In this document: piece after piece, positions 1,551 through 46,775 of the stretch
How positions within the stretch are numbered: the stretch's first letter is position 1
How the letters are laid out: each line of letters begins with the position of its first letter
Source: Escherichia phage JLBYU19
Sequence record: OK272489.1
Strand: one strand, 5' to 3'
Length of the DNA stretch: 49,897 nt
Notes under the pieces: model-generated
The model's input: only the letters and a program-made list of their open reading frames with translations
Database searches by the model: none
Told to the model about the DNA's origin: nothing
Position numbers and translations under genes: made by a program

Positions 1551-3548
1551 ATGATTCCAAATATCGAAAAACAAATATCAGCGTTAGGCGAGGCAGTAAT
1601 AAAAAGCATCCAAGAGCGATTCACGGTTGGCAATATAGTGCCTTATCCTTATCAGTGCGTTGCGTATGCCGAGATCGCAAAGCGCATGAAAAACTATGAG
1701 CATCCTTTCTTCGTTAAGGCTTCTGTGTCGGCTGGCAAAACTTTGATGTTTGCGATGGTTGCGGCGCAATGCCGCAAGATGGGATTGAAAATGATGGTCC
1801 TTGCTCGCCAGGCTGAAATTGTTGATCAGGATTCAGAAGAGATCAGCAATCTTGGCGTGCCAAACTCAATCTATTGCGCCGGACTGAAAACAAAAAGCGC
1901 ATACTTTCCGATCGTAGTCGGTTCTGAGGGCACTGTAGTAAACGGATTGTTTAAGTCGTTAGGTGATTATGTTCCGCACGTTATCGGTATTGATGAATGT
2001 CACCAGGTGGATTGGGAGGATCTCGCTGATGCGATAGAAAATAATGAATCTTACCAGCAGATGACCACTAAGAAGGATTTACCTGTACTGATTGGAGAAG
2101 AACAGCAATTTGATTCCAATGGCGATCCAATGTTCGGAACAGGGCGCACACAGTACACCGTAATAATCATGGAAATGATGCGCAGGTGTCGCGAGGCATA
2201 CGGGCACGAATTGCGAATATTCGGTATGACTGGATCTGAGTTTCGCGGCGTGGTTCCAATACTGGTTGAAGATAAGAACAAAAAGGGATTCTGGCGTGAG
2301 CAGGTGACTAACATAGACACAAACTACTTAATCAAATTTGGTTCTGTAGTGCCAACAAATTTCGGCGACGTAGGCGACCTGGGGTATGACCTTTCAGAGT
2401 TCGAAGCCAGTAGCGAGGATGGCGTTTCAGACTTTGACGCTAAAACATTGCGCAAGATGGAAGAAAAGATCCATCAAGACGCAACAATGACACAGAAAAT
2501 CATGGCTAAAGTCCATGAGATATGCAAAGACAGGAACGGAGTTTTAGTTACATGCGCAGGGGAAAGACACTGCAAGGAGGCCGCCGCCGCACTTCCGCCA
2601 GGCGTTGAATACAGGATCATAACTGGCAAGACTGGAGACAATCAGCGTAAAGAGTGGCTGAGGGAGGCATACGAGGGAAAAGTAAAATACATCTTCCAGG
2701 TACAGGCGCTTACCACTGGCGTTAACGTTCCGTTTTGGGATACTTCTGTAATACTGAGAAAGATAGGTTCTCTAACATTGCTTATCCAGCTTTTGGGGCG
2801 CGGTATGCGACTGCTTAAGCAATGGCACATTGAGCAGGGATTCAAGAAAAAAGATCATCTTGTATTGGATTTTGCCGGTACTATGGATGAGTTAGGGGAT
2901 TTGTATTTCGATCCAATCCTTGAGCAAGCGCAATTCCAAAAGAGATTTACAAACGGGAAAGAGCCTAAGACTTGTCCGATATGTGGAACGCTAAACAGCT
3001 TTTACGCTCGCCGATGTATGCACGTAGACGATAACGGGAAGAGATGCGAGCATTTTTGGACTTACAGAATTTGCGAGGACCAGGTAGATCCGAGAACGAA
3101 AAAGATAATCAAGCGCGGTTGCGGAACAAAAAACGACGTAGTGGCGAGAGTATGCCGTTGTTGCGATATTTCTCTTGTCGATCCTAACGAGAAGTTAAGC
3201 GGCAAGCACTACACCAAAAACGATTGGTGCAACGTTAAATCTTTCCGCGTTGATATGACGAAAAACCAGAAAGGAATTGTTTTTTGCTATGAGCTTGAGG
3301 CCAACGGCGACACATTCAAGGCATACGAAAGATTTTTCCCTGAGTCAGAAAGCAACATTTGCCGGACGATATGGAGAAAAATAGCATTGCAGCACATACC
3401 GGATCGCAAGGTTGCTGGTATGGTGGCGAGCTATAGAAATGCGCGTAAAATAATGTCATACGCTCATCACATCATGCCTCCTGTACGCGTAACGCATCGC
3501 AAAAACGGCAAAGGTGAGGATAACATTGCAAAACGGGAGTTTGTTTAA
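1551..3548 (+). CDS. SF2 DNA helicase (DEAD/DEAH-box) with C-terminal zinc-ribbon region
   Basis: 665 aa; Walker A-like SVSAGKT, motif II GIDECHQV, several CxxC pairs in C-terminal third. Confidence 0.85.
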   Translation: MIPNIEKQISALGEAVIKSIQERFTVGNIVPYPYQCVAYAEIAKRMKNYEHPFFVKASVSAGKTLMFAMVAAQCRKMGLKMMVLARQAEIVDQDSEEISNLGVPNSIYCAGLKTKSAYFPIVVGSEGTVVNGLFKSLGDYVPHVIGIDECHQVDWEDLADAIENNESYQQMTTKKDLPVLIGEEQQFDSNGDPMFGTGRTQYTVIIMEMMRRCREAYGHELRIFGMTGSEFRGVVPILVEDKNKKGFWREQVTNIDTNYLIKFGSVVPTNFGDVGDLGYDLSEFEASSEDGVSDFDAKTLRKMEEKIHQDATMTQKIMAKVHEICKDRNGVLVTCAGERHCKEAAAALPPGVEYRIITGKTGDNQRKEWLREAYEGKVKYIFQVQALTTGVNVPFWDTSVILRKIGSLTLLIQLLGRGMRLLKQWHIEQGFKKKDHLVLDFAGTMDELGDLYFDPILEQAQFQKRFTNGKEPKTCPICGTLNSFYARRCMHVDDNGKRCEHFWTYRICEDQVDPRTKKIIKRGCGTKNDVVARVCRCCDISLVDPNEKLSGKHYTKNDWCNVKSFRVDMTKNQKGIVFCYELEANGDTFKAYERFFPESESNICRTIWRKIALQHIPDRKVAGMVASYRNARKIMSYAHHIMPPVRVTHRKNGKGEDNIAKREFV

Positions 3549-3967
3549 TGGCTATAACTGATAAAGGCGATTATCTTGAGTTTTACGAAAGGGATCCAAC
3601 CGACACGAGAAGGGAAGTTAATCACCAGATAGATAGTTTTCAGTGGTTGACTTATGCTCATCCTTATTTGCTGGCGTGGCATACGGTAAACGAGAATGAG
3701 AAGTCTAAAGCAACGGCGATGATTGATCAGCAGTCCGGCTTGGTTAAGGGAGTAAGCGATTTCATCATCCTGATTGGTTTAAACGGAAAATACCCCTTTG
3801 CAGCGATTGAGATCAAACGAGTGAATAAATCAGGCAAGGGGAAAGCATCACCAGTCAGCGATGAACAAAAGGCTTTTTTGCGTCGCGTTCGCAGCTTAGG
3901 AGGATTCGCTGCGGTAGCCTACGGATTCAATCAGTTTAAGTTGGCTATTGAATACATGCTTAAATAG
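3548..3967 (+). CDS. VRR-NUC-like nuclease (PD-(D/E)xK)
   Basis: 139 aa; VSDFIIL...IEIKR core; start overlaps helicase stop (TAATG). Confidence 0.6.
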   Translation: MAITDKGDYLEFYERDPTDTRREVNHQIDSFQWLTYAHPYLLAWHTVNENEKSKATAMIDQQSGLVKGVSDFIILIGLNGKYPFAAIEIKRVNKSGKGKASPVSDEQKAFLRRVRSLGGFAAVAYGFNQFKLAIEYMLK

Positions 3968-11114: not shown

Positions 11115-11134
11115 TTTTAACAAAAAGTGCTATT
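11115..11134 (-). promoter_or_regulatory. conserved junction element (minus strand)
   Basis: exact consensus on minus strand; stop of upstream gene embedded; CATAAT 22 nt downstream. Confidence 0.6.
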
Positions 11135-11816
11135 TTGAGTTTGACTCAAAGACGGCGCGAGCAAATCCGCGCGGAGTGAGGGAGCGTAGTTGCTTTGTTC
11201 TGGCAGACTTACCGCCTAAAAACTTCCAACCCCAAAAGAACATTACGCCCTCATCATTGGATAACGGCTTGCGTTCCGGTTCGGTAAATCCGTTGCCGCA
11301 CCAGATAGCCGTCCTTTTAGTGTAGCCATCCTTTAGCGGCATTTTGGGGTGAAATGACCCATCGGATTCGTCCAAGTAGTTACCAAAATCGCGCGGATTG
11401 AAATAAAAATCCGGCTTGCGCCATAGCGTTGATAGTCGGCCTACCGGATTCTCAGCCATCCAGGGAACACCGAAATGATTTCCGACTTTTTCAACCATGA
11501 TTGCATTTTGGAGCGCGATATGAATATCGTCTTCGCTGCGCACATGCTTACTTCCTGATTGGGCGAACATGGTGCAGTCTGGAAAGCCAAATACAATATC
11601 AGGTTTTGGAATATCCATCTTAATGACGTTTTCAATGAAATTTTCATCAATCCACATATTCACATAATGCAGATTTTCATGCTTCATTTTGATGAAATAT
11701 TCTCCGTGATTGCCTTCGTCAGCGTTAAAGCAATAGCATTGATAACCAGCCTTCGCATATTCAAGCAACATGATTCCAGATCCATCAAACATTGAGTAAG
11801 CAACTTTATTTCCCAT
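11130..11816 (-). CDS. C5-cytosine DNA methyltransferase-like protein (short form)
   Basis: 228 aa from ATG 11816; FDGSG (motif I-like), GFPDCTMFAQSG (PC motif IV-like), ENP (motif VI-like); no obvious target-recognition domain; start ambiguous (11816/11840/11876). Confidence 0.5.
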   Translation of the reverse strand: MGNKVAYSMFDGSGIMLLEYAKAGYQCYCFNADEGNHGEYFIKMKHENLHYVNMWIDENFIENVIKMDIPKPDIVFGFPDCTMFAQSGSKHVRSEDDIHIALQNAIMVEKVGNHFGVPWMAENPVGRLSTLWRKPDFYFNPRDFGNYLDESDGSFHPKMPLKDGYTKRTAIWCGNGFTEPERKPLSNDEGVMFFWGWKFLGGKSARTKQLRSLTPRGFARAVFESNSK

Positions 11817-12333
11817 GATTTTTATGATACCCCAATTCATTCTCGGCTTTACGTTTTGCGGCAACAGCATCTCCAAAACTGGAGAAACAACCTATATAAA
11901 TCCTACTTCCTCGCTTTCCGCTTCCAACCCTTACAATCCACTTGCCATGTTTATTTTTATGCACACCTGGCATGCCACTTGTATTGTTTTTCTGCTTTGA
12001 TGTGTTTCGCATATTTCCTTTGTGATCTTTTAACTCAAAGTTTATTGCTCTGTTATCAGTCGTAATGTGATTTACGTGATCAACCTCCATTCCTTCCGGT
12101 ATAGGCCCATAGTGCATTTCATAGCATATTCTATGAACTTTCAGGTTATAACGTTTTCCGTTTACAGTAAGTGCGGTTTCTAAATATCTGCCACCACTAC
12201 CCAAAGAGCCAACCTCATTACCAGCATTACAAGCATTCCATTGTTTAACTCTTGATTGGTGAATATCTTTTCTTTCTTTCCAGAACAGCTTTCCGGTTTC
12301 TGGATTGTATGTAAAGTAATCGTGCCAATTCAT
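11806..12333 (-). CDS. HNH homing endonuclease with AP2-type DNA-binding domain
   Basis: 175 aa; HNH motif EVDHVNHITTDNRAINFEL; C-terminal AP2-like GVHKNKHGKWIVRV...YIGCF; GAGGT RBS. Confidence 0.75.
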   Translation of the reverse strand: MNWHDYFTYNPETGKLFWKERKDIHQSRVKQWNACNAGNEVGSLGSGGRYLETALTVNGKRYNLKVHRICYEMHYGPIPEGMEVDHVNHITTDNRAINFELKDHKGNMRNTSKQKNNTSGMPGVHKNKHGKWIVRVGSGKRGSRIYIGCFSSFGDAVAAKRKAENELGYHKNHGK

Positions 12334-15936: not shown

Positions 15937-16075
15937 TTATTTATTTATATATATCTATAATGTTTTCTTTTTGTTCTCACTGTTACAGTGCTTTTTGTTG
16001 GGTGTGGTGTGGTTGTGTGTTGGTATATATGGATAGTTGCGCGCGCGGCGGATTGCATATGTATATATACTTTTT
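15937..16075. repeat. AT/GT-rich block homologous to 43926-44060
   Basis: TTATTTATTTAT(A/G)TAT... then TTGTTTT(C/T)TT.., GT-rich GGTGTGGTGTGG, ATGTATATATAC; same order in both copies. Confidence 0.55.
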
Positions 16076-16188
16076 CCGGCGGATTGCGTTAACAGCGTGA
16101 ACAGAAAAATAACAGCCCTGAAATCAACAACTTGCGCATGATTTTGTAGTTTTTCGATATTGGTAACGTTTTGAATACAACAAAAACA

Positions 16189-16216
16189 TTGACACGCACC
16201 AAATAGCTTTTATAAT
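16189..16216 (+). promoter_or_regulatory. sigma70-type promoter (consensus hexamers)
   Basis: TTGACA 16189-16194, 16-nt spacer, TATAAT 16211-16216; 32 nt upstream of ATG 16248. Confidence 0.6.
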
Positions 16217-16247
16217 GCGCCAACAGTCAACAACTGGAGGAAAGGAA

Positions 16248-16712
16248 ATGGAACAGAAGACCACTAAGGACTATTGCGATTGGCTTCGCGAGCTTGGTCG
16301 CCGCATGGCTAGTGGCGATATTGAAGAGTATAAAATGTCACTAATTGACCTGGCCGGAATGTTAAGCGGTGACGACTGCTACAAGATCACGCGCAGTTCA
16401 TCCTACAGCCGGACCATTATCAACCGCGTTCCAGAAGTAAGGGCCGCAGGTCGGGTAAGTATCAAGGTCGAGGAAACGGAAGATGATAAATTTTACGTTT
16501 TCCGCATGGTGCGCGAATCAAAAAGGAAAATCATCACACCCGAAGAATTGCCAGCAATCAAGGCAAGGGCGATCAAAAAGTTTGCCGATCGCTTACTGGC
16601 AGCAATCCCGAACATCGTTGACCTGGAAGGGGATAAACTGGCTGGAGCTTGTGAGGGCGTAAGCCGCTACCAGGATATGATCCGCGAAATCATCAAAGAG
16701 GAGGAGCAATAA
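16248..16712 (+). CDS. hypothetical early protein
   Basis: 154 aa from ATG 16248 (GGAGGAAAGG RBS), directly downstream of consensus sigma70-type promoter. Confidence 0.5.
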   Translation: MEQKTTKDYCDWLRELGRRMASGDIEEYKMSLIDLAGMLSGDDCYKITRSSSYSRTIINRVPEVRAAGRVSIKVEETEDDKFYVFRMVRESKRKIITPEELPAIKARAIKKFADRLLAAIPNIVDLEGDKLAGACEGVSRYQDMIREIIKEEEQ

Positions 16713-16837
16713 TGAAAAAGGCATTAATCGGCGTTTTGGCGGCAATGACACTCCTGAACGGCGGCGAAGGCACTAAGGTTATGGCACACGCTATGGTAAT
16801 GGCTGAATTTGAGGAAGTGAAAGATGAAAACAAATAA
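16712..16837 (+). CDS. hypothetical small protein (not in ORF track)
   Basis: 41 codons with hydrophobic N-terminus; GAGGAGG RBS. Confidence 0.3.
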   Translation: MKKALIGVLAAMTLLNGGEGTKVMAHAMVMAEFEEVKDENK

Positions 16838-17045
16838 GCGCGTCAAGCACAGGTTTACTGATAACCACGGCGACGCGATTGATGTATACAAGTTCGGCGA
16901 TCGCGTGTTTATTGATGGCACGTTTGAAGGTGGGCGTAGGCCGGATTTTAGGTCGATACTTACCGTTGACCAAGTGCGCAAGCTGGCAGATAAGTTAAAT
17001 GATCTGGCAGATGAAATAGAATACAAGCAAATCCATTTTAATTGA
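16824..17045 (+). CDS. hypothetical protein
   Basis: 73 aa; GAGGA RBS. Confidence 0.45.
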   Translation: MKTNKRVKHRFTDNHGDAIDVYKFGDRVFIDGTFEGGRRPDFRSILTVDQVRKLADKLNDLADEIEYKQIHFN

Positions 17046-17056
17046 TAGGTTTTATA

Positions 17057-17599
17057 ATGAAAAAATACACTTTCGAACTATGGGGCAAGAAGTACGAATT
17101 AATTACCAGCAAGCCGATTGTTATCGTTGACCTGGACGGCACACTATCGGACGGATCGCATCGTTTGCATTTGCTGCCAACTGAAAACTTGCACCTTACG
17201 GAATCGTGGAGCGAGTTTAACAGGGCCGCAGCAGGAGATTCACCGATTAAAAGCACGATCGCGATTGTTAACGGTTTGTGGGTGTCGGGATTTGCCATCG
17301 TCATCTTGACCGGACGCAGCGACGAGGTTCGCTACGAAACCTGCAAATGGTTGAATGAGAACGGCGTGAAGTTTGACGAAATCATCATGCGCCGCCAGGA
17401 TGACAACCGAAAGGATACGGTTATTAAAGAGGAAGCCTTGCGCGCTATCGGACTGGAAAACATTGTGTGCGCTTTTGATGATTCGCCGAACGTGGTTAAG
17501 CACTTCCGCAGCCTGGGAATCACAACCTATCAGGTCACGGAATACGACAAGCCGCACGCTCACATGCAATCTCACGGCGTGGAGGAGTTGCAGAAATGA
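17057..17599 (+). CDS. HAD-superfamily phosphatase (nucleotidase / polynucleotide 3-phosphatase-like)
   Basis: 180 aa from ATG 17057; DxDGT motif (VDLDGTLSDG) plus ILTGR and FDDS motifs. Confidence 0.65.
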   Translation: MKKYTFELWGKKYELITSKPIVIVDLDGTLSDGSHRLHLLPTENLHLTESWSEFNRAAAGDSPIKSTIAIVNGLWVSGFAIVILTGRSDEVRYETCKWLNENGVKFDEIIMRRQDDNRKDTVIKEEALRAIGLENIVCAFDDSPNVVKHFRSLGITTYQVTEYDKPHAHMQSHGVEELQK

Positions 17600-17805
17600 T
17601 CCTGAATGTAGCATATGCTAACCCTCGCGGCCGCAATATATACGGCTTTAAGGTTGGCGCGATGGTCAACGCCAGGATAAACGAAAAAGGCGTATTAGTT
17701 GTCAAGTCACCTAAAACTGGCATTGATATGCACATCAAGGAGAACGGCGGAAGATTGTTTATCAGGTCAATGTCTGGTCAAACGCTCGCAACTTTCACCA
17801 AATAG
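17596..17805 (+). CDS. hypothetical protein
   Basis: 69 aa; ATGA overlap with upstream gene; stop inside junction element. Confidence 0.45.
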   Translation: MILNVAYANPRGRNIYGFKVGAMVNARINEKGVLVVKSPKTGIDMHIKENGGRLFIRSMSGQTLATFTK

Positions 17806-17819
17806 CACTTTTGCAAAAA
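17801..17819 (+). promoter_or_regulatory. conserved junction element (variant AATAGCACTTTTGCAAAAA)
   Basis: TTGCAA variant; TATAGT at 17839-17844 inside GGGCTT/AAGCCC dyad. Confidence 0.55.
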
Positions 17820-17875
17820 CAGATTATCGGGCTTGCTGTATAGTAAGCCCATCAACAACAAGCGAGGATTAAATC

Positions 17876-18139
17876 ATGGCTAACAAGATCGAATTTTTCA
17901 AAGCGGTAGACATTATTGATGGCGCTCCTAGCTTCTTTGCCATCCATTCCATTGACGGCAAGGATATTGGGTACGACGTTATCCGTCGAGATGGAATCTC
18001 AAAACTTAGCGATCTGGTAGGGCATATTGTGTCAAACGGGAAATGCGCATGGCCCGATTCGCCACGAGAGCCACGCCGCCGCGACATGGTAGAGCCTGCT
18101 CTGCTTTACACTCTGGTAGTAGAAGGAGAAAATAAATGA
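17876..18139 (+). CDS. hypothetical protein
   Basis: 87 aa; GAGGA RBS after junction element 17801. Confidence 0.5.
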   Translation: MANKIEFFKAVDIIDGAPSFFAIHSIDGKDIGYDVIRRDGISKLSDLVGHIVSNGKCAWPDSPREPRRRDMVEPALLYTLVVEGENK

Positions 18140-18321
18140 TTTGGTTACTTGCTTTTTTGGTTGTTTTTCTTTACATTTCAGGCTTGTTTACGTTCCGCGC
18201 GTTGGTGAAATATTCTGACGCGACAGACAAGGACGATAAAATCGTTCTCGCTTTCTGGTTTGTTTGGGCGTGGTTAGCAATTTACGAGATCATTAGAGAC
18301 AAACAGAAATTTGAGTGGTGA
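18136..18321 (+). CDS. hypothetical membrane protein
   Basis: 61 aa with two hydrophobic segments; ATGA overlap. Confidence 0.4.
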   Translation: MIWLLAFLVVFLYISGLFTFRALVKYSDATDKDDKIVLAFWFVWAWLAIYEIIRDKQKFEW

Positions 18322-18380
18322 TTCTTGCTATGGCGCATTCATGCAGTGCGCCATGTTGAGAAAACCTAAAGGGGGAGACG

Positions 18381-18530
18381 ATGCGTAACTTTGAAAAAAT
18401 CATTACCAAAAAGAAGCGTCGCGGGTACGATGAGCATGTGGAGCTTGTGAAAAAGCAACGCAAGAAGCGCAACGAAGACAAGAAGCGCAGGAAAAAATTT
18501 AATGCGATTTTTCGCTATGGAGATCATTAA
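18381..18530 (+). CDS. hypothetical basic small protein (not in ORF track)
   Basis: 49 codons, Lys/Arg-rich; AAGGGGGA RBS. Confidence 0.35.
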   Translation: MRNFEKIITKKKRRGYDEHVELVKKQRKKRNEDKKRRKKFNAIFRYGDH

Positions 18531-18532
18531 TC

Positions 18533-19123
18533 ATGAAACGAGACATTATTATCCTTAATGGGCCGCCTGGCTGTGGAAAGGACACTATTGCAGCTTACCT
18601 AACGGGCCATCGTTACCCAGCGGTTAAGGCGTCATTCAAGCAGCCGATGTTCGATATTGCGTTTTCCATGCTGGGCGTGTACAGATACGATGAATTTATG
18701 GACCTGTACAACGACCGAGAACAAAAAGAAAAGCCTCAAGTTATTTTGGGCGGCAAGTCACCTCGACAATTCATGATCTGGATTAGCGAGGATGTAATGA
18801 AGCCAGTTTTTGGGGATCACTATTTCGGGCGTCGAATGGTTGAAGAGATTCACGAGATGTACCGAGATTTGGCGGTTGTGATCAGTGATGGCGGATTCCC
18901 CGAAGAAATCAAGCCGCTCGTTAAGGCGGGGCATGAGGTGCATATTTGCCGATTGCATCGCGACGGCTTCACGTTTGCTGGCGATTCGAGAGACTACATT
19001 GACCTGAGCGGTTATCACTATCGAATCCATCACTATGACTTCCACTTGCAGGACGGCAAGCCGGAACTGGCTGTAAACGAGATCGTCAATACTGTCAAAT
19101 GGAAGCACACACAGATTAAATAG
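18533..19123 (+). CDS. P-loop nucleotide kinase (dNMP kinase-like)
   Basis: 196 aa; N-terminal Walker A ILNGPPGCGKDT. Confidence 0.6.
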   Translation: MKRDIIILNGPPGCGKDTIAAYLTGHRYPAVKASFKQPMFDIAFSMLGVYRYDEFMDLYNDREQKEKPQVILGGKSPRQFMIWISEDVMKPVFGDHYFGRRMVEEIHEMYRDLAVVISDGGFPEEIKPLVKAGHEVHICRLHRDGFTFAGDSRDYIDLSGYHYRIHHYDFHLQDGKPELAVNEIVNTVKWKHTQIK

Positions 19124-19137
19124 CACGAATTGCTAAA
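19119..19137 (+). promoter_or_regulatory. conserved junction element (variant AATAGCACGAATTGCTAAA)
   Basis: TTGCTA variant; TATAAT at 19158-19163; GC dyad 19139-19157. Confidence 0.55.
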
Positions 19138-19193
19138 CGCGGGGTTATCGGCCCCGCTATAATGCGCACATCAACAATCAAGAGGAAATCACA

Positions 19194-19574
19194 ATGGTTA
19201 ACATCAGAAAAATTCGCGTCGGCACTAAATTCTTAGTTACTTACGCAATTCCAGATAGCGGAATGAAGAAGGGCCAGATTGTTAAGGTTGATAGCAAAAG
19301 ATTCGGAATCCCTGGCATCAATGGCTATCTAATCAATAAAGATCTTGGATTCGGCGGCTTCGCTATCCGTTCGCTTGATGGTATTGTTGCTACCCTCAAG
19401 CAAATCACTAACCATCGCGGCTGCCCAATCAAGACGATTAAAGCGCCAACCAATTACGGCAAACTGGATAATCGTCGAATCCGCCGCCTGGCGCGTAACG
19501 CGTTAAAATTCCGTGGCGTAGGCGATGATTTCTACTATGGTTACAAGAGGATCGCGCGCAATGCTGGGAAATAA
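19194..19574 (+). CDS. hypothetical protein
   Basis: 126 aa; AAGAGGA RBS after junction element 19119. Confidence 0.5.
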   Translation: MVNIRKIRVGTKFLVTYAIPDSGMKKGQIVKVDSKRFGIPGINGYLINKDLGFGGFAIRSLDGIVATLKQITNHRGCPIKTIKAPTNYGKLDNRRIRRLARNALKFRGVGDDFYYGYKRIARNAGK

Positions 19575-19673
19575 CAATAACGCAACGAATCCTAAGCCAC
19601 CTTTTGATTTTCATTCCGCAATGATTGCGGTATTATCAATGCTACTTTTTCTTTATAGCATGAGGGCGCCACT

Positions 19674-19922
19674 ATGGTTTTTAACGCATTGAAACGACTG
19701 TTTAAGCCGGAATACCGGATCGTATTTTGCCGAGACTGTTCTACTTATCATGTGCAGCGACGCAGCTTAGGCGGCAATTGGCACTATGTTACAGACGACT
19801 TTTTCGGCATTATTGCCACTGAATTTAAGTATTACAGCGATGCTTATATGTACGTCAAGAAGCGCCACCGCTTACGCAAGTGTCGTTTTTCCGTGCTGAT
19901 TCACGTTAATGATTGTTACTGA
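19674..19922 (+). CDS. hypothetical protein with Cys pairs
   Basis: 82 aa, basic; CRDC plus distal Cys residues. Confidence 0.4.
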   Translation: MVFNALKRLFKPEYRIVFCRDCSTYHVQRRSLGGNWHYVTDDFFGIIATEFKYYSDAYMYVKKRHRLRKCRFSVLIHVNDCY

Positions 19923-19929
19923 GGTTAAA

Positions 19930-20112
19930 ATGAAAACTGGTATTATTATTCTTTTCCTGATCCTTTTCGGCAGTCATTTAACCATTAACTACGATGGCAT
20001 TATGGCATTTTGGGGCAACTTGATGATGTTTGCCGCTGGTTCGATTGCTGGCTACTCTGACGGGAAAAAGGATGGCGTTCGCAAGATGCTGATGGGGCTT
20101 AAACAAAAATAA
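19930..20112 (+). CDS. hypothetical membrane protein
   Basis: 60 aa from ATG 19930 (GAGG RBS); two hydrophobic helices. Confidence 0.4.
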   Translation: MKTGIIILFLILFGSHLTINYDGIMAFWGNLMMFAAGSIAGYSDGKKDGVRKMLMGLKQK

Positions 20113-45622: not shown

Positions 45623-46276
<654 letters not shown>

Positions 46277-46279
<3 letters not shown>

Positions 46280-46325
46280 TAAACGGGGCGCTTGCGCCCC
46301 TTTTGTCATAGGAGAAAACAAAATG
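46277..46325 (+). repeat. leader element shared with connector-gene leader (30616-30667)
   Basis: same stop-hairpin-TTGTCATA-GGAGAAAACAAA-ATG arrangement. Confidence 0.55.
46285..46308 (+). terminator. hairpin/attenuator in ssb leader
   Basis: GGGGCGC-tt-GCGCCCC followed by TTTTGTCAT. Confidence 0.4.
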
Positions 46326-46775
46326 CACGTTATTACAGGTGAGATTCGAAAAGAGCCAAAAGTAAAGCAAATGCCTAACGGCAGCACGCTATATGTTATT
46401 GAGCTTTCCGAGCGATACAAAGACCGAGAAGGAAATTGGCAGTATACAAACTATGTGTTTTTCTTTAACGCGAAAACAGACGGCCTGAATGGTTGGTATG
46501 CCGAGGCGTTCCAGGTAGGCAAGGTTGTTTCTGTTTCCTGCGATACCTTGCGAGTTGAAACGCGAGAATACAACGGAAAGATTTACAGCACCGTGCAGCC
46601 TGGCGGATTTGCAAACTTGCTATTTAGCCAGAGAGGTGAAAGCCAGCAACAATATCAGCAGCGAACGCAAGGAGGCTGGGGGCAACCACAACAGCAACAG
46701 CAACAAAATACTCAACAGCATCCGCAGCAAAGCAATCAGCCTCCGATTGACTTTGACGACGATATACCATTCTGA
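46323..46775 (+). CDS. ssb: single-stranded DNA-binding protein
   Basis: 150 aa from ATG 46323 (AGGAG RBS); Gln/Gly-rich linker and acidic C-terminal tail DFDDDIPF. Confidence 0.8.
   Translation: MHVITGEIRKEPKVKQMPNGSTLYVIELSERYKDREGNWQYTNYVFFFNAKTDGLNGWYAEAFQVGKVVSVSCDTLRVETREYNGKIYSTVQPGGFANLLFSQRGESQQQYQQRTQGGWGQPQQQQQQNTQQHPQQSNQPPIDFDDDIPF

What the first reader, a model, noticed from the sequence alone, without database searches (positions are those of the whole stretch)
17057..19123. Separate HAD phosphatase and P-loop kinase genes (split polynucleotide-kinase/phosphatase-like or nucleotide-pool pair)
The HAD protein (DxDGT motif) and the kinase (GPPGCGKDT) lie 900 bp apart, with three small ORFs between them. 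Together they could reconstitute end-healing (PNKP-like) activity against tRNA or RNA-cleaving defences, or act in dNMP metabolism.
Basis: inference. Interest (0 to 1): 0.35.

Follow-up and report, generated by a model that had tools for sequence, protein, structure and literature searches.

The report
T1-like phage phosphatase plus dNMP-kinase pair
Two early genes of a T1-like coliphage encode a stand-alone copy of the phosphatase half of T4 polynucleotide kinase and a T4-gp1-type nucleotide kinase; both are already annotated in close relatives, they form a conserved (sometimes fused) pair, and they most likely recycle host DNA breakdown products rather than repair RNA.

Summary
The window is about 96% identical to Warwickvirus phages (Drexlerviridae), such as FritzSarasin and tonnikala.

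- **Phosphatase:** 17057-17599 encodes a 180-aa HAD protein of the Pnkp 3'-phosphatase family. The T4 catalytic residues checked are matched in a pairwise alignment. It has no kinase domain.
- **Kinase:** 18533-19123 encodes a 196-aa P-loop kinase. It falls in the same PHROG as T4 gp1 dNMP kinase, and gp1 (1DEK) is its best fold match. It shares only the P-loop with the Pnkp 5'-kinase.
- **Between them:** four small ORFs, not three.
- **Prior annotation:** relatives label these genes "polynucleotide kinase" and "dNMP kinase / ATP-binding protein", so the genes are known.

The work adds two points. "Polynucleotide kinase" is a misnomer for a phosphatase-only protein. The two genes also form a real module: the phosphatase lies upstream on the same strand in 62 of 80 related viral contigs. 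The genes overlap (ATGA) in some Drexlerviridae and in an Aeromonas podophage, and they are fused into one protein in a metagenomic lineage.

No RNA ligase, DNA ligase or tRNA gene was found. In related podophages the neighbouring genes are nucleases and nucleotide enzymes. Salvage of host-DNA breakdown products is therefore the best reading. A split RNA-repair PNKP is unlikely. Activities are untested.

The parts
16189..16216 (+). Promoter-like site with a perfect sigma-70 consensus (TTGACA-16-TATAAT), at the head of the + strand array of small early genes that includes both genes
   Evidence: 12 of 12 matches. No terminator-like site was found on the + strand between 16216 and 19700. This is a consensus match only, and function is not shown.
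17057..17599 (+). Stand-alone HAD phosphatase (180 aa), homologous to the 3'-phosphatase domain of T4 Pnkp; has no kinase domain
   Evidence: Pfam HAD_PNKP at 2.2e-21. phrog_415 at 6.6e-67. PDB sequence hits are Pnkp1 4xrp and T4 Pnkp 1ltq/5uj0, phosphatase part only. BLASTP to T4 Pnkp residues 152-300: 29% identity, E 3e-10. Foldseek top hits are 5UJ0, 4XRU and 2IA5 (model pLDDT 72).
17129..17143 (+). HAD motif I, DLDGT (D25 is the predicted nucleophile, D27 the predicted acid/base)
   Evidence: Aligned to T4 Pnkp D165-V-D167-G-T.
17596..17805 (+). Small ORF A (69 aa), whose start overlaps the HAD stop codon (ATGA); function unknown
   Evidence: No Pfam or PHROG hit. An ORF of the same length and position is annotated in FritzSarasin as bas04_0072.
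17876..18139 (+). Small ORF B (87 aa); function unknown
   Evidence: Hits phrog_25318 and phrog_12951, both of unknown function.
18136..18321 (+). Small ORF C (61 aa, hydrophobic N-terminus); function unknown
   Evidence: phrog_9755 at 1.9e-22, unknown function.
18381..18530 (+). Small, very basic ORF D (49 aa) that ends 2 nt before the kinase start codon; function unknown
   Evidence: The only hit is a sub-threshold match to T7 gene 1.1 protein (PF08200, E 0.022).
18533..19123 (+). P-loop nucleotide kinase (196 aa) of the T4 gp1 dNMP-kinase family
   Evidence: phrog_139 at 3.4e-51, covering profile positions 81-261. T4 gp1 hits the same profile region at 1.8e-65. AF2 model pLDDT 91.8. Foldseek top hit is 1DEK (E 5.2e-07, TMq 0.69), and the later listed hits reach TMq 0.54 at most. 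hhalign to gp1 covers 74 columns at 85% probability.
18560..18586 (+). P-loop GPPGCGKDT, with the GKDT ending also found in T4 gp1 (SGKDT)
   Evidence: G15, K16, D17 and T18 are invariant in 31 homologues. Aligned to gp1 GVKRSGKDT.

Best explanation
The two genes are co-oriented, probably co-transcribed early genes of a T1-like phage.

**Shown.**
- Gene 1 encodes a stand-alone homologue of the HAD 3'-phosphatase domain of T4 Pnkp. The catalytic residues checked are matched in a pairwise alignment.
- Gene 2 encodes a gp1-type deoxynucleoside monophosphate kinase.
- The two form a conserved two-gene module. Adjacent or overlapping genes look like the simpler arrangement. In this phage four small ORFs sit between them, and elsewhere the two are fused into one polypeptide.

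**Inferred mechanism.**
- T1-like phages degrade the host chromosome and reuse its nucleotides (PMC11447400), and no DNA polymerase gene is apparent in T1 or TLS (same paper) or annotated in FritzSarasin.
- The kinase would convert 5'-dNMPs released from host DNA into dNDPs. Host nucleoside diphosphate kinase would then make dNTPs.
- The phosphatase would remove 3'-phosphates from breakdown products. These could be 3'-phosphorylated DNA ends, 3'-dNMPs or 3',5'-bisphosphates. The products then become usable exonuclease and kinase substrates.

The enzymatic steps are inferred from family membership, not demonstrated.
For: **Identity of the phosphatase.**
- Family, sequence and fold hits.
- Residue matches to T4 Pnkp in the alignment: D25/D27 = D165/D167, T85 = S211, R87 = R213, D120 = D254, K124 = K258, D141/D142 = D277/D278.

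**Identity of the kinase.**
-.

**Module.**
- 62 of 80 viral contigs that carry the kinase have the HAD gene upstream on the same strand. Gaps run from -3 to 2165 nt.
- ATGA overlap in L050, L051 and L052.
- A 4-nt overlap in Aeromonas phage CF7, Autographiviridae.
- Fusion proteins P0257 (403 aa) and P0264 (461 aa) have HAD_PNKP at the N-terminus and a phrog_139 kinase at the C-terminus.
- P0257 is 46% identical to the window phosphatase and 43% identical to the window kinase. It is seen on three contigs, in at least two samples.

**Nucleotide and DNA-catabolism context.**
- In Autographiviridae the pair, or either gene alone, sits beside exonuclease, endonuclease VII and metallophosphoesterase genes.
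- In Minorna and CX5 the gene after the HAD gene encodes a dATP/dGTP diphosphohydrolase, PF18909.

**Literature.**
- T1 and TLS degrade host DNA and reuse the nucleotides; TLS Gp09 and Gp14 are annotated as PNK and dNMP kinase (PMC11447400).

**Absence of an RNA-repair partner.**
- No ligase or tRNA gene was found.
Against: - No enzyme assay exists for either protein or for any close relative that I could find.
- The phosphatase family's characterised members act on polynucleotide ends as well as on 3'-mononucleotides. The substrate cannot be read from sequence.
- The nuclease that degrades host DNA in T1-like phages is unidentified (PMC11447400). It is therefore unknown whether 3'-phosphorylated products arise at all.
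- 18 of 80 kinase loci lack the HAD gene, though a few of these are truncated. Some podophages have the HAD gene without the kinase. Each enzyme can therefore work alone.
- Kinase identity to gp1 is only about 17%, and plain sequence searches of the PDB find only the P-loop. Nucleotide specificity is unknown.
- The HAD model has low confidence over residues 29-63. This is a strongly conserved insert that T4 Pnkp lacks.
Confidence: 0.6

Rival explanations
1. Split PNKP for RNA repair. The kinase phosphorylates 5'-OH RNA ends and the phosphatase removes 2',3'-cyclic or 3'-phosphates. Together they would heal tRNAs cut by anticodon nucleases or other RNA-cleaving defences, as T4 Pnkp does with Rnl1.
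For: The phosphatase is a true homologue of the T4 Pnkp and Pnkp1 phosphatase domains. The two genes are linked and sometimes fused, in the phosphatase-then-kinase order. By my own knowledge, mammalian PNKP has that same domain order.
Against: The kinase belongs to the gp1 / NMP-kinase family, not the Pnkp kinase family. It gives no AAA_33 hit, whereas a genuine 295-aa phage Pnkp gives AAA_33 at 1.9e-17. It aligns to T4 Pnkp over the P-loop only. No Pnkp chain is among the 50 listed Foldseek hits. No RNA or DNA ligase was found in the window's large ORFs or in the annotation of the 96%-identical phage, and there are no phage tRNAs. Neighbouring genes in other phages are DNA nucleases and dNTP enzymes.
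Confidence: 0.1
2. DNA-end cleaning plus an independent nucleotide kinase. The phosphatase restores 3'-OH at 3'-phosphate DNA nicks or ends on phage DNA, so that host polymerase and ligase can act. The kinase separately boosts dNTP supply. The link between them would be loose.
For: The phosphatase belongs to the Pnkp family. By my own knowledge, the T4 3'-phosphatase was first linked to DNA metabolism. No DNA polymerase or ligase is annotated in the 96%-identical relative, so the phage presumably depends on host enzymes that need 3'-OH ends. Each gene occurs without the other in some phages.
Against: A loose link does not easily explain the overlapping genes in two phage families or the fusion that persists in a diverged lineage. 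In some podophages the HAD gene is replaced in partnership by another mononucleotide enzyme gene, a dNTP diphosphohydrolase, which points to nucleotide-level chemistry.
Confidence: 0.2
3. No functional relation. The two genes are simply neighbours in a syntenic early region of one phage family, and the pairing is inherited gene order.
For: Most of the 62 co-occurrences come from one family, Drexlerviridae, where gene order is conserved genome-wide. Variable small ORFs are freely inserted between the two genes.
Against: The same ordered and overlapping pair occurs in an unrelated family, in Aeromonas phage CF7 (Autographiviridae). The two proteins are also fused in a metagenomic phage lineage seen in at least two samples.
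Confidence: 0.08

Closest known systems
T4 polynucleotide kinase/phosphatase (PseT, Pnkp; PDB 1LTQ, 2IA5, 5UJ0)
   Same: The window HAD protein aligns to Pnkp residues 152-300 (29% identity, E 3e-10). DxDGT and the R213, D254, K258 and D277/D278 equivalents are conserved. Pnkp is the top fold match.
   Different: The window protein has no N-terminal AAA_33 5'-kinase domain. It carries a strongly conserved insert between motifs I and II (HRLHLLPT.NLHLTESW.EFN) that T4 lacks. No RNA ligase partner is present. The kinase gene linked to it belongs to another family.
T4 gp1 deoxynucleoside monophosphate kinase (PDB 1DEK)
   Same: Both hit the same PHROG (phrog_139) over the same profile region. Both have the GKDT P-loop. 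gp1 is the top Foldseek hit (TMq 0.69). hhalign extends 74 columns, past the P-loop.
   Different: Identity is about 17%. The window protein is 196 aa against 241 aa. Sequence-only PDB searches do not find gp1. Specificity is unknown. gp1 serves hydroxymethyl-dCMP, dGMP and dTMP (T4 record note). No base-hypermodification genes are annotated in the close relative, only Dam- and Dcm-like methyltransferases.
"Polynucleotide kinase" and "dNMP kinase / ATP-binding protein" genes of T1, TLS, FritzSarasin, tonnikala and other Drexlerviridae
   Same: These are the same genes. The region is about 96% identical at the DNA level, and the closest listed kinase hit is 99.5% identical in tblastn. TLS Gp09 and Gp14 are described this way in PMC11447400, and the pair is noted in PMC13164509.
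   Different: Nothing substantive differs. The number of small ORFs between the two genes varies: four here and in vB_Eco-B1.2, six in FritzSarasin, and none in some genera. The label "polynucleotide kinase" overstates what a phosphatase-only protein can do.
Capnocytophaga gingivalis Pnkp1 (Pnkp1-Rnl5-Hen1 RNA repair complex; PDB 4XRP, 4XRU)
   Same: This is the best PDB sequence hit to the HAD protein (E 5.1e-07), and the fold matches.
   Different: Pnkp1 is a 312-aa chain in which only residues 191-308 align to the window HAD protein. It works within a ligase- and Hen1-containing repair complex. None of those partners is present here.
Mammalian PNKP and phage nucleotide kinases T7 gp1.7 and T5 Dnk (functional analogues, from my own knowledge; not tested here)
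   Same: Mammalian PNKP has the phosphatase-then-kinase domain order seen in fusion proteins P0257 and P0264. T7 gp1.7 and T5 Dnk supply dNDPs from dNMPs derived from host DNA.
   Different: No homology was tested or claimed here. The mammalian PNKP kinase domain is of the Pnkp type, not the gp1 type.

Membership tests
HAD_PNKP (Pfam PF25109; Pnkp-type 3'-phosphatase domain) | Profile score above the curated gathering threshold | tested here: met
   76.9 bits against a cut-off of 27.6, E 2.2e-21, covering 138 of 143 profile positions.
HAD_PNKP (Pfam PF25109; Pnkp-type 3'-phosphatase domain) | Catalytic constellation of T4 Pnkp: DxDGT nucleophile motif, motif II Ser/Thr with Arg213, Asp254, Lys258 and Asp277/Asp278. 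The list of essential residues comes from my knowledge of the Shuman laboratory's mutagenesis. | tested here: met
   The BLASTP alignment gives D25/D27, T85/R87, D120, K124 and D141/D142. All except T85 (90% or more) are invariant in 27 homologues. The equivalent of T4 Arg176 is ambiguous (possibly R36) because the region between motifs I and II does not align.
HAD_PNKP (Pfam PF25109; Pnkp-type 3'-phosphatase domain) | Fold of the T4 Pnkp phosphatase domain | tested here: met
   Foldseek top hits are 5UJ0 (E 3.9e-08, TMt 0.70), 4XRU and 2IA5. The model has only medium confidence (pLDDT 72).
HAD_PNKP (Pfam PF25109; Pnkp-type 3'-phosphatase domain) | 3'-phosphatase activity on nucleic acid ends or 3'-nucleotides | not testable with these tools
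   Needs an enzyme assay.
Bifunctional polynucleotide kinase-phosphatase (T4 Pnkp type) | A P-loop 5'-OH polynucleotide kinase domain (Pfam AAA_33 type) in the same protein or in the partner protein | tested here: not met
   The HAD protein is 180 aa with no kinase domain. The partner kinase gives no AAA_33 hit, whereas a genuine phage Pnkp (L095, 295 aa) gives AAA_33 at 1.9e-17 plus HAD_PNKP. hhalign to T4 Pnkp covers only the 25-column P-loop. No Pnkp chain is among the 50 listed Foldseek hits.
Bifunctional polynucleotide kinase-phosphatase (T4 Pnkp type) | A companion RNA ligase for end sealing | tested here: not met
   No ligase family was found in the window's larger uncharacterised ORFs, and none is annotated in the 96%-identical FritzSarasin genome. 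Small ORFs were not all scanned, but by my own knowledge known RNA ligases exceed 300 aa.
gp1-type deoxynucleoside monophosphate kinase (phrog_139; PDB 1DEK) | Profile match co-linear with T4 gp1 | tested here: met
   The window kinase hits at 3.4e-51 on profile positions 81-261. T4 gp1 hits at 1.8e-65 on positions 83-261.
gp1-type deoxynucleoside monophosphate kinase (phrog_139; PDB 1DEK) | P-loop ending in GKDT | tested here: met
   GPPGCGKDT in the window against GVKRSGKDT in gp1. This ending is invariant in the family alignment.
gp1-type deoxynucleoside monophosphate kinase (phrog_139; PDB 1DEK) | NMP-kinase fold closest to gp1 | tested here: met
   The model has pLDDT 91.8. 1DEK ranks first (TMq 0.69), and the later listed hits reach TMq 0.54 at most.
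gp1-type deoxynucleoside monophosphate kinase (phrog_139; PDB 1DEK) | ATP-dependent phosphorylation of 5'-dNMPs, and which dNMPs | not testable with these tools
   Needs an enzyme assay. No curated Pfam or NCBIfam model reaches its threshold.

The most novel reading that the evidence does not exclude
The HAD phosphatase and the gp1-like kinase might together form an uncharacterised bifunctional enzyme. It would be a non-orthologous counterpart of Pnkp, built on an NMP-kinase scaffold, and it exists as a single polypeptide in some phages. One possible activity is to phosphorylate the 5'-OH and remove the 3'-phosphate of 3'-deoxynucleotides or short oligonucleotides, which would convert 3'-phosphorylated DNA breakdown products into 5'-dNMPs. 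Another is to heal nucleic-acid ends despite its nucleotide-kinase ancestry.
Probability: 0.15. Interest if true: 0.6.

Novelty: already known. Interest (0 to 1): 0.25.

Why it matters
As they stand, these are two routinely annotated genes of T1-like phages, so little changes.

Two modest points have practical value:
- The database label "polynucleotide kinase" or "3'-phosphatase, 5'-polynucleotide kinase" is wrong for this protein. It has only the phosphatase half, so claims of RNA repair or end-healing capacity in Drexlerviridae genomes should not rest on it.
- The phosphatase and the gp1-type kinase form a conserved unit that is sometimes translationally coupled and sometimes fused.

This gives a concrete, testable lead on an open question noted in the TLS re-annotation paper (PMC11447400). 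T1-like phages degrade the host chromosome and reuse its nucleotides, and no DNA polymerase gene is apparent in T1 or TLS. Which early genes do this is not known.

Tried and rejected
**Led nowhere or added nothing.**
- Sequence searches of the PDB with the kinase, as a single sequence and as a 31-sequence profile, found only P-loop matches: AAA ATPases, guanylate kinase and YorR. They were uninformative on family. Fold search and PHROG were needed.
- NCBIfam gave nothing above cut-off for either protein.
- Pfam gave nothing above cut-off for the kinase.
- The paper on retron Eco2 that mentions both polynucleotide kinase and Drexlerviridae was checked. Its mentions of polynucleotide kinase are T4 PNK used as a labelling reagent, so it is irrelevant.
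- Literature searches for phage-defence links of dNMP kinases and for phosphatase-only PNK proteins found nothing useful. One search failed on syntax.

**Considered and rejected.**
- The longer ORF from TTG 17042 as the HAD start. Homologues begin MKKYTFELWG, which matches ATG 17057.
- P0386 (363 aa) as a third fusion. Its N-terminal part is not a HAD domain, with only a weak HTH hit.
- Kuravirus's 297-aa "dNMP kinase" as a fusion. No Pfam domain was found in the protein.
- The FritzSarasin 297-aa protein upstream of the HAD gene as a metallophosphoesterase partner. It gives no Pfam hit, and no ORF of that size lies between the promoter-like site and the HAD gene in this window.
Full report
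**What the window is.** The region 16000-20000 is about 96% identical to Escherichia phages FritzSarasin (Bas04), tonnikala, vB_EcoS-95, SECphi27 and others. FritzSarasin is classified in Drexlerviridae, Tempevirinae, Warwickvirus, which are T1-like siphoviruses. In those records the two genes are already annotated. The first is "polynucleotide kinase", "putative kinase-phosphatase" or "3'-phosphatase, 5'-polynucleotide kinase". The second is "putative P-loop NTPase", "ATP-binding protein" or "dNMP kinase".

**Checking the observation.**
- The HAD ORF is 17057-17599 (+, 180 aa), with DLDGT at codons 25-29 (nt 17129-17143).
- The kinase ORF is 18533-19123 (+, 196 aa), with GPPGCGKDT at codons 10-18 (nt 18560-18586).
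- The 933-nt interval holds four tightly packed small + strand ORFs, not three: 17596-17805, 17876-18139, 18136-18321 and 18381-18530.
- The first overlaps the HAD stop codon (ATGA). The last ends 2 nt before the kinase ATG.
- ORFs of matching lengths are annotated as CDSs in FritzSarasin.
- A perfect sigma-70 consensus lies at 16189-16216, upstream of the whole + strand array. No terminator-like site follows it on the + strand before 19700. Co-transcription as early genes is therefore plausible, though these are pattern matches only.

**The phosphatase.** It passes the curated Pfam threshold for HAD_PNKP (76.9 bits against 27.6, E 2.2e-21) and matches phrog_415 (6.6e-67).
- Its only significant PDB sequence hits are the phosphatase parts of Capnocytophaga Pnkp1 and T4 Pnkp.
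- BLASTP against T4 PseT aligns it to residues 152-300 only (29% identity, E 3e-10).
- In that alignment D25/D27 match D165/D167, T85/R87 match S211/R213, D120 matches D254, K124 matches K258, and D141/D142 match D277/D278.
- These residues are invariant in 27 homologues, except T85, which is conserved in at least 90%.
- An AlphaFold model of medium confidence (pLDDT 72) finds the T4 Pnkp 3'-phosphatase (5UJ0), Pnkp1 and full-length T4 Pnkp as its best structural matches.
- The protein has no kinase domain, so "polynucleotide kinase" is a misnomer.
- It carries a strongly conserved segment between motifs I and II (HRLHLLPT.NLHLTESW.EFN). This segment does not align to T4 and is modelled with low confidence. 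It may determine substrate choice.

**The kinase.** No curated Pfam or NCBIfam model reaches threshold. Sequence searches of the PDB see only the P-loop. Three independent lines still place it with T4 gp1 dNMP kinase rather than with the Pnkp 5'-kinase.
- It matches phrog_139 at 3.4e-51 over profile positions 81-261. T4 gp1 matches the same profile region at 1.8e-65. The T4 Pnkp kinase domain does not hit that family.
- A profile of 31 homologues aligns to gp1 over 74 columns, beyond the P-loop (85% probability). It aligns to T4 Pnkp over the 25-column P-loop only.
- A confident model (pLDDT 91.8) has 1DEK (gp1 with dGMP) as its top Foldseek hit (E 5.2e-07, TMq 0.69). Archaeal adenylate kinases and other small-molecule kinases follow at TMq 0.54 or below. 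No Pnkp chain is among the 50 listed hits.
- As a positive control, a genuine 295-aa phage Pnkp (Enterobacter phage YOG) gives AAA_33 plus HAD_PNKP in Pfam. The window kinase gives no AAA_33 hit.

**Are the two genes functionally linked?** I fetched 80 viral contigs that encode a relative of the kinase.
- In 62 of them a relative of the HAD protein lies upstream on the same strand, and never in another arrangement.
- The distance varies from about 2.2 kb down to an ATGA start/stop overlap (L050, L051, L052). T1 itself (L068) has a 490-nt gap.
- So the simpler arrangement appears to be two adjacent, translationally coupled genes. The interval is a slot where small ORFs come and go: four here and in vB_Eco-B1.2, six in FritzSarasin.
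- Family-wide synteny alone would be weak evidence, but two observations go beyond it.
- First, the same ordered pair with a 4-nt overlap occurs in an unrelated family. In Aeromonas phage CF7 (Autographiviridae) it sits between exonuclease, endonuclease VII and a metallophosphoesterase on one side and the RNA polymerase gene on the other.
- Second, an exhaustive profile search of 1.8 billion representative proteins found two long members, P0257 (403 aa) and P0264 (461 aa). Both have HAD_PNKP/phrog_415 at the N-terminus and phrog_139 at the C-terminus.
- P0257 is 46% identical to the window phosphatase (E 1e-47) and 43% identical to the window kinase (E 3e-47). It is encoded as one uninterrupted gene on three contigs in at least two samples, including a 60.7-kb phage-like contig.
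- The two fusions share a linker motif (GPELHG), so they probably descend from a single fusion event that has since diverged below 50% identity.
- Each gene can also occur alone. The kinase occurs without the HAD gene in ISAO8, VP93 and 18 of the 80 contigs. The HAD gene occurs without the kinase in Minorna and CX5.

**What the pair most likely does.** The genomic company is DNA catabolism and nucleotide metabolism, not RNA repair.
- In podophages the genes sit with exonuclease, endonuclease VII and metallophosphoesterase genes.
- In Minorna and CX5 the gene directly after the HAD gene encodes a dATP/dGTP diphosphohydrolase domain protein (PF18909, E about 1e-34) rather than the kinase.
- The window has no tRNA gene. 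No ligase family appears among its larger unassigned ORFs. The fully annotated 96%-identical relative has no DNA or RNA ligase, no DNA polymerase and no other nucleotide-synthesis gene.
- The TLS re-annotation paper states that T1 and TLS degrade the host genome and reuse the nucleotides, and that the responsible early genes are unidentified. It lists Gp09 (PNK) and Gp14 (dNMP kinase) under nucleotide metabolism (PMC11447400).
- I therefore favour a salvage module. The kinase turns 5'-dNMPs from host DNA into dNDPs. The phosphatase removes 3'-phosphates from ends, 3'-dNMPs or 3',5'-bisphosphates, so that breakdown products enter that route.
- The family assignments are shown. The substrates and the pathway are inferred.

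**Rivals.**
- A split PNKP that heals cleaved tRNA or RNA is unlikely. The kinase is of the wrong family and there is no ligase.
- A DNA-end 3'-phosphatase acting independently of the kinase remains possible, because each gene can occur alone. It explains the coupling and the fusion less well.
- Pure synteny without any functional link is contradicted by the cross-family adjacency and the fusion.
- The most novel reading left open is that the pair or fusion is a Pnkp-like bifunctional enzyme built on an NMP-kinase scaffold. It might, for example, convert 3'-dNMPs to 5'-dNMPs. I give this about 15%.

**Verdict.** The genes do form a pair, and the nucleotide-pool alternative fits. The split RNA-repair PNKP alternative does not. 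The genes themselves are already known and annotated in many T1-like phages. The additions here are a corrected label for the phosphatase-only "PNK" and comparative evidence that the two proteins form one functional unit. Interest is low to modest.

Noticed in passing
Homologues P0088, P0097, P0103, P0108, P0111 (phage JulesPiccard), P0112, P0115 and P0120 in alignment A1; window 46272-46775 for the phage SSB: A subset of kinase homologues in other T1-like phages carries a C-terminal acidic tail ending D(D/E)IPW. This resembles the tip of the phage's own SSB, which ends DFDDDIPF, and, by my own knowledge, the E. coli SSB tip. It could recruit the kinase to proteins that bind the SSB tail, such as those at the replisome. 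The window kinase lacks this tail.
   Followed up: partly
Window 17570-17599 (HAD C-terminus ...SHGVEELQK) and homologues P0121, P0131, P0153, P0183 and P0209: Many 92-96% identical relatives have a 236-264-aa form of the phosphatase. It carries extra C-terminal modules after the conserved HGVE motif: a Cys-rich CxxxxC...CxxC segment and/or a module of about 57 aa. A short GV(E/D)(E/S)(L/I)K motif recurs at module boundaries, which suggests recombination junctions.
   Followed up: partly
Window 16189-16216 (+): A perfect 12/12 sigma-70 consensus promoter (TTGACA-16-TATAAT) sits just upstream of the DUF7174 gene. FritzSarasin annotates a shorter, 154-aa form of that gene, so its true start may be the ATG at 16248 rather than 16215.
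   Followed up: partly
Window 18381-18530 (+): The very basic 49-aa ORF directly before the kinase has a sub-threshold match to the T7 gene 1.1 protein family (PF08200, E 0.022, 15.6 bits against a cut-off of 21). This is probably a composition effect.
   Followed up: no
L093 2980-3294 (Escherichia phage Minorna) and L094 2974-3501 (Pectobacterium phage CX5): In these Autographiviridae a 52-58% identical stand-alone HAD_PNKP phosphatase gene is followed directly by a gene for a dATP/dGTP diphosphohydrolase domain protein (PF18909), in place of the dNMP kinase gene. This is an alternative nucleotide-enzyme partner occupying the same slot.
   Followed up: yes
P0257 residues about 97-103 (L090 8001-9212): The fused phosphatase-kinase P0257 has DNRSST where the window protein has DNRKDT. 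It therefore lacks the equivalent of T4 Pnkp Asp254. The other fusion, P0264, keeps it (RRDT). The phosphatase half of P0257 may be altered or impaired.
   Followed up: no
Window 11806-12333 (-) and 3548-3967 (+): A 175-aa HNH_3 endonuclease ORF lies next to the presumed Dcm-like methylase gene (11130-11876). No HNH gene is annotated in the FritzSarasin record, so it may be an inserted homing endonuclease. A VRR-NUC nuclease ORF follows the helicase gene.
   Followed up: no
and one search hit lists: Eighteen and 39 records named "Campylobacter phage" match this E. coli T1-like region or its kinase. Campylobacter jejuni is given as host for 18 and 37 of them. I did not examine these records, so I cannot say whether they are genuine Campylobacter phages or mislabelled or contaminated entries.
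   Followed up: no
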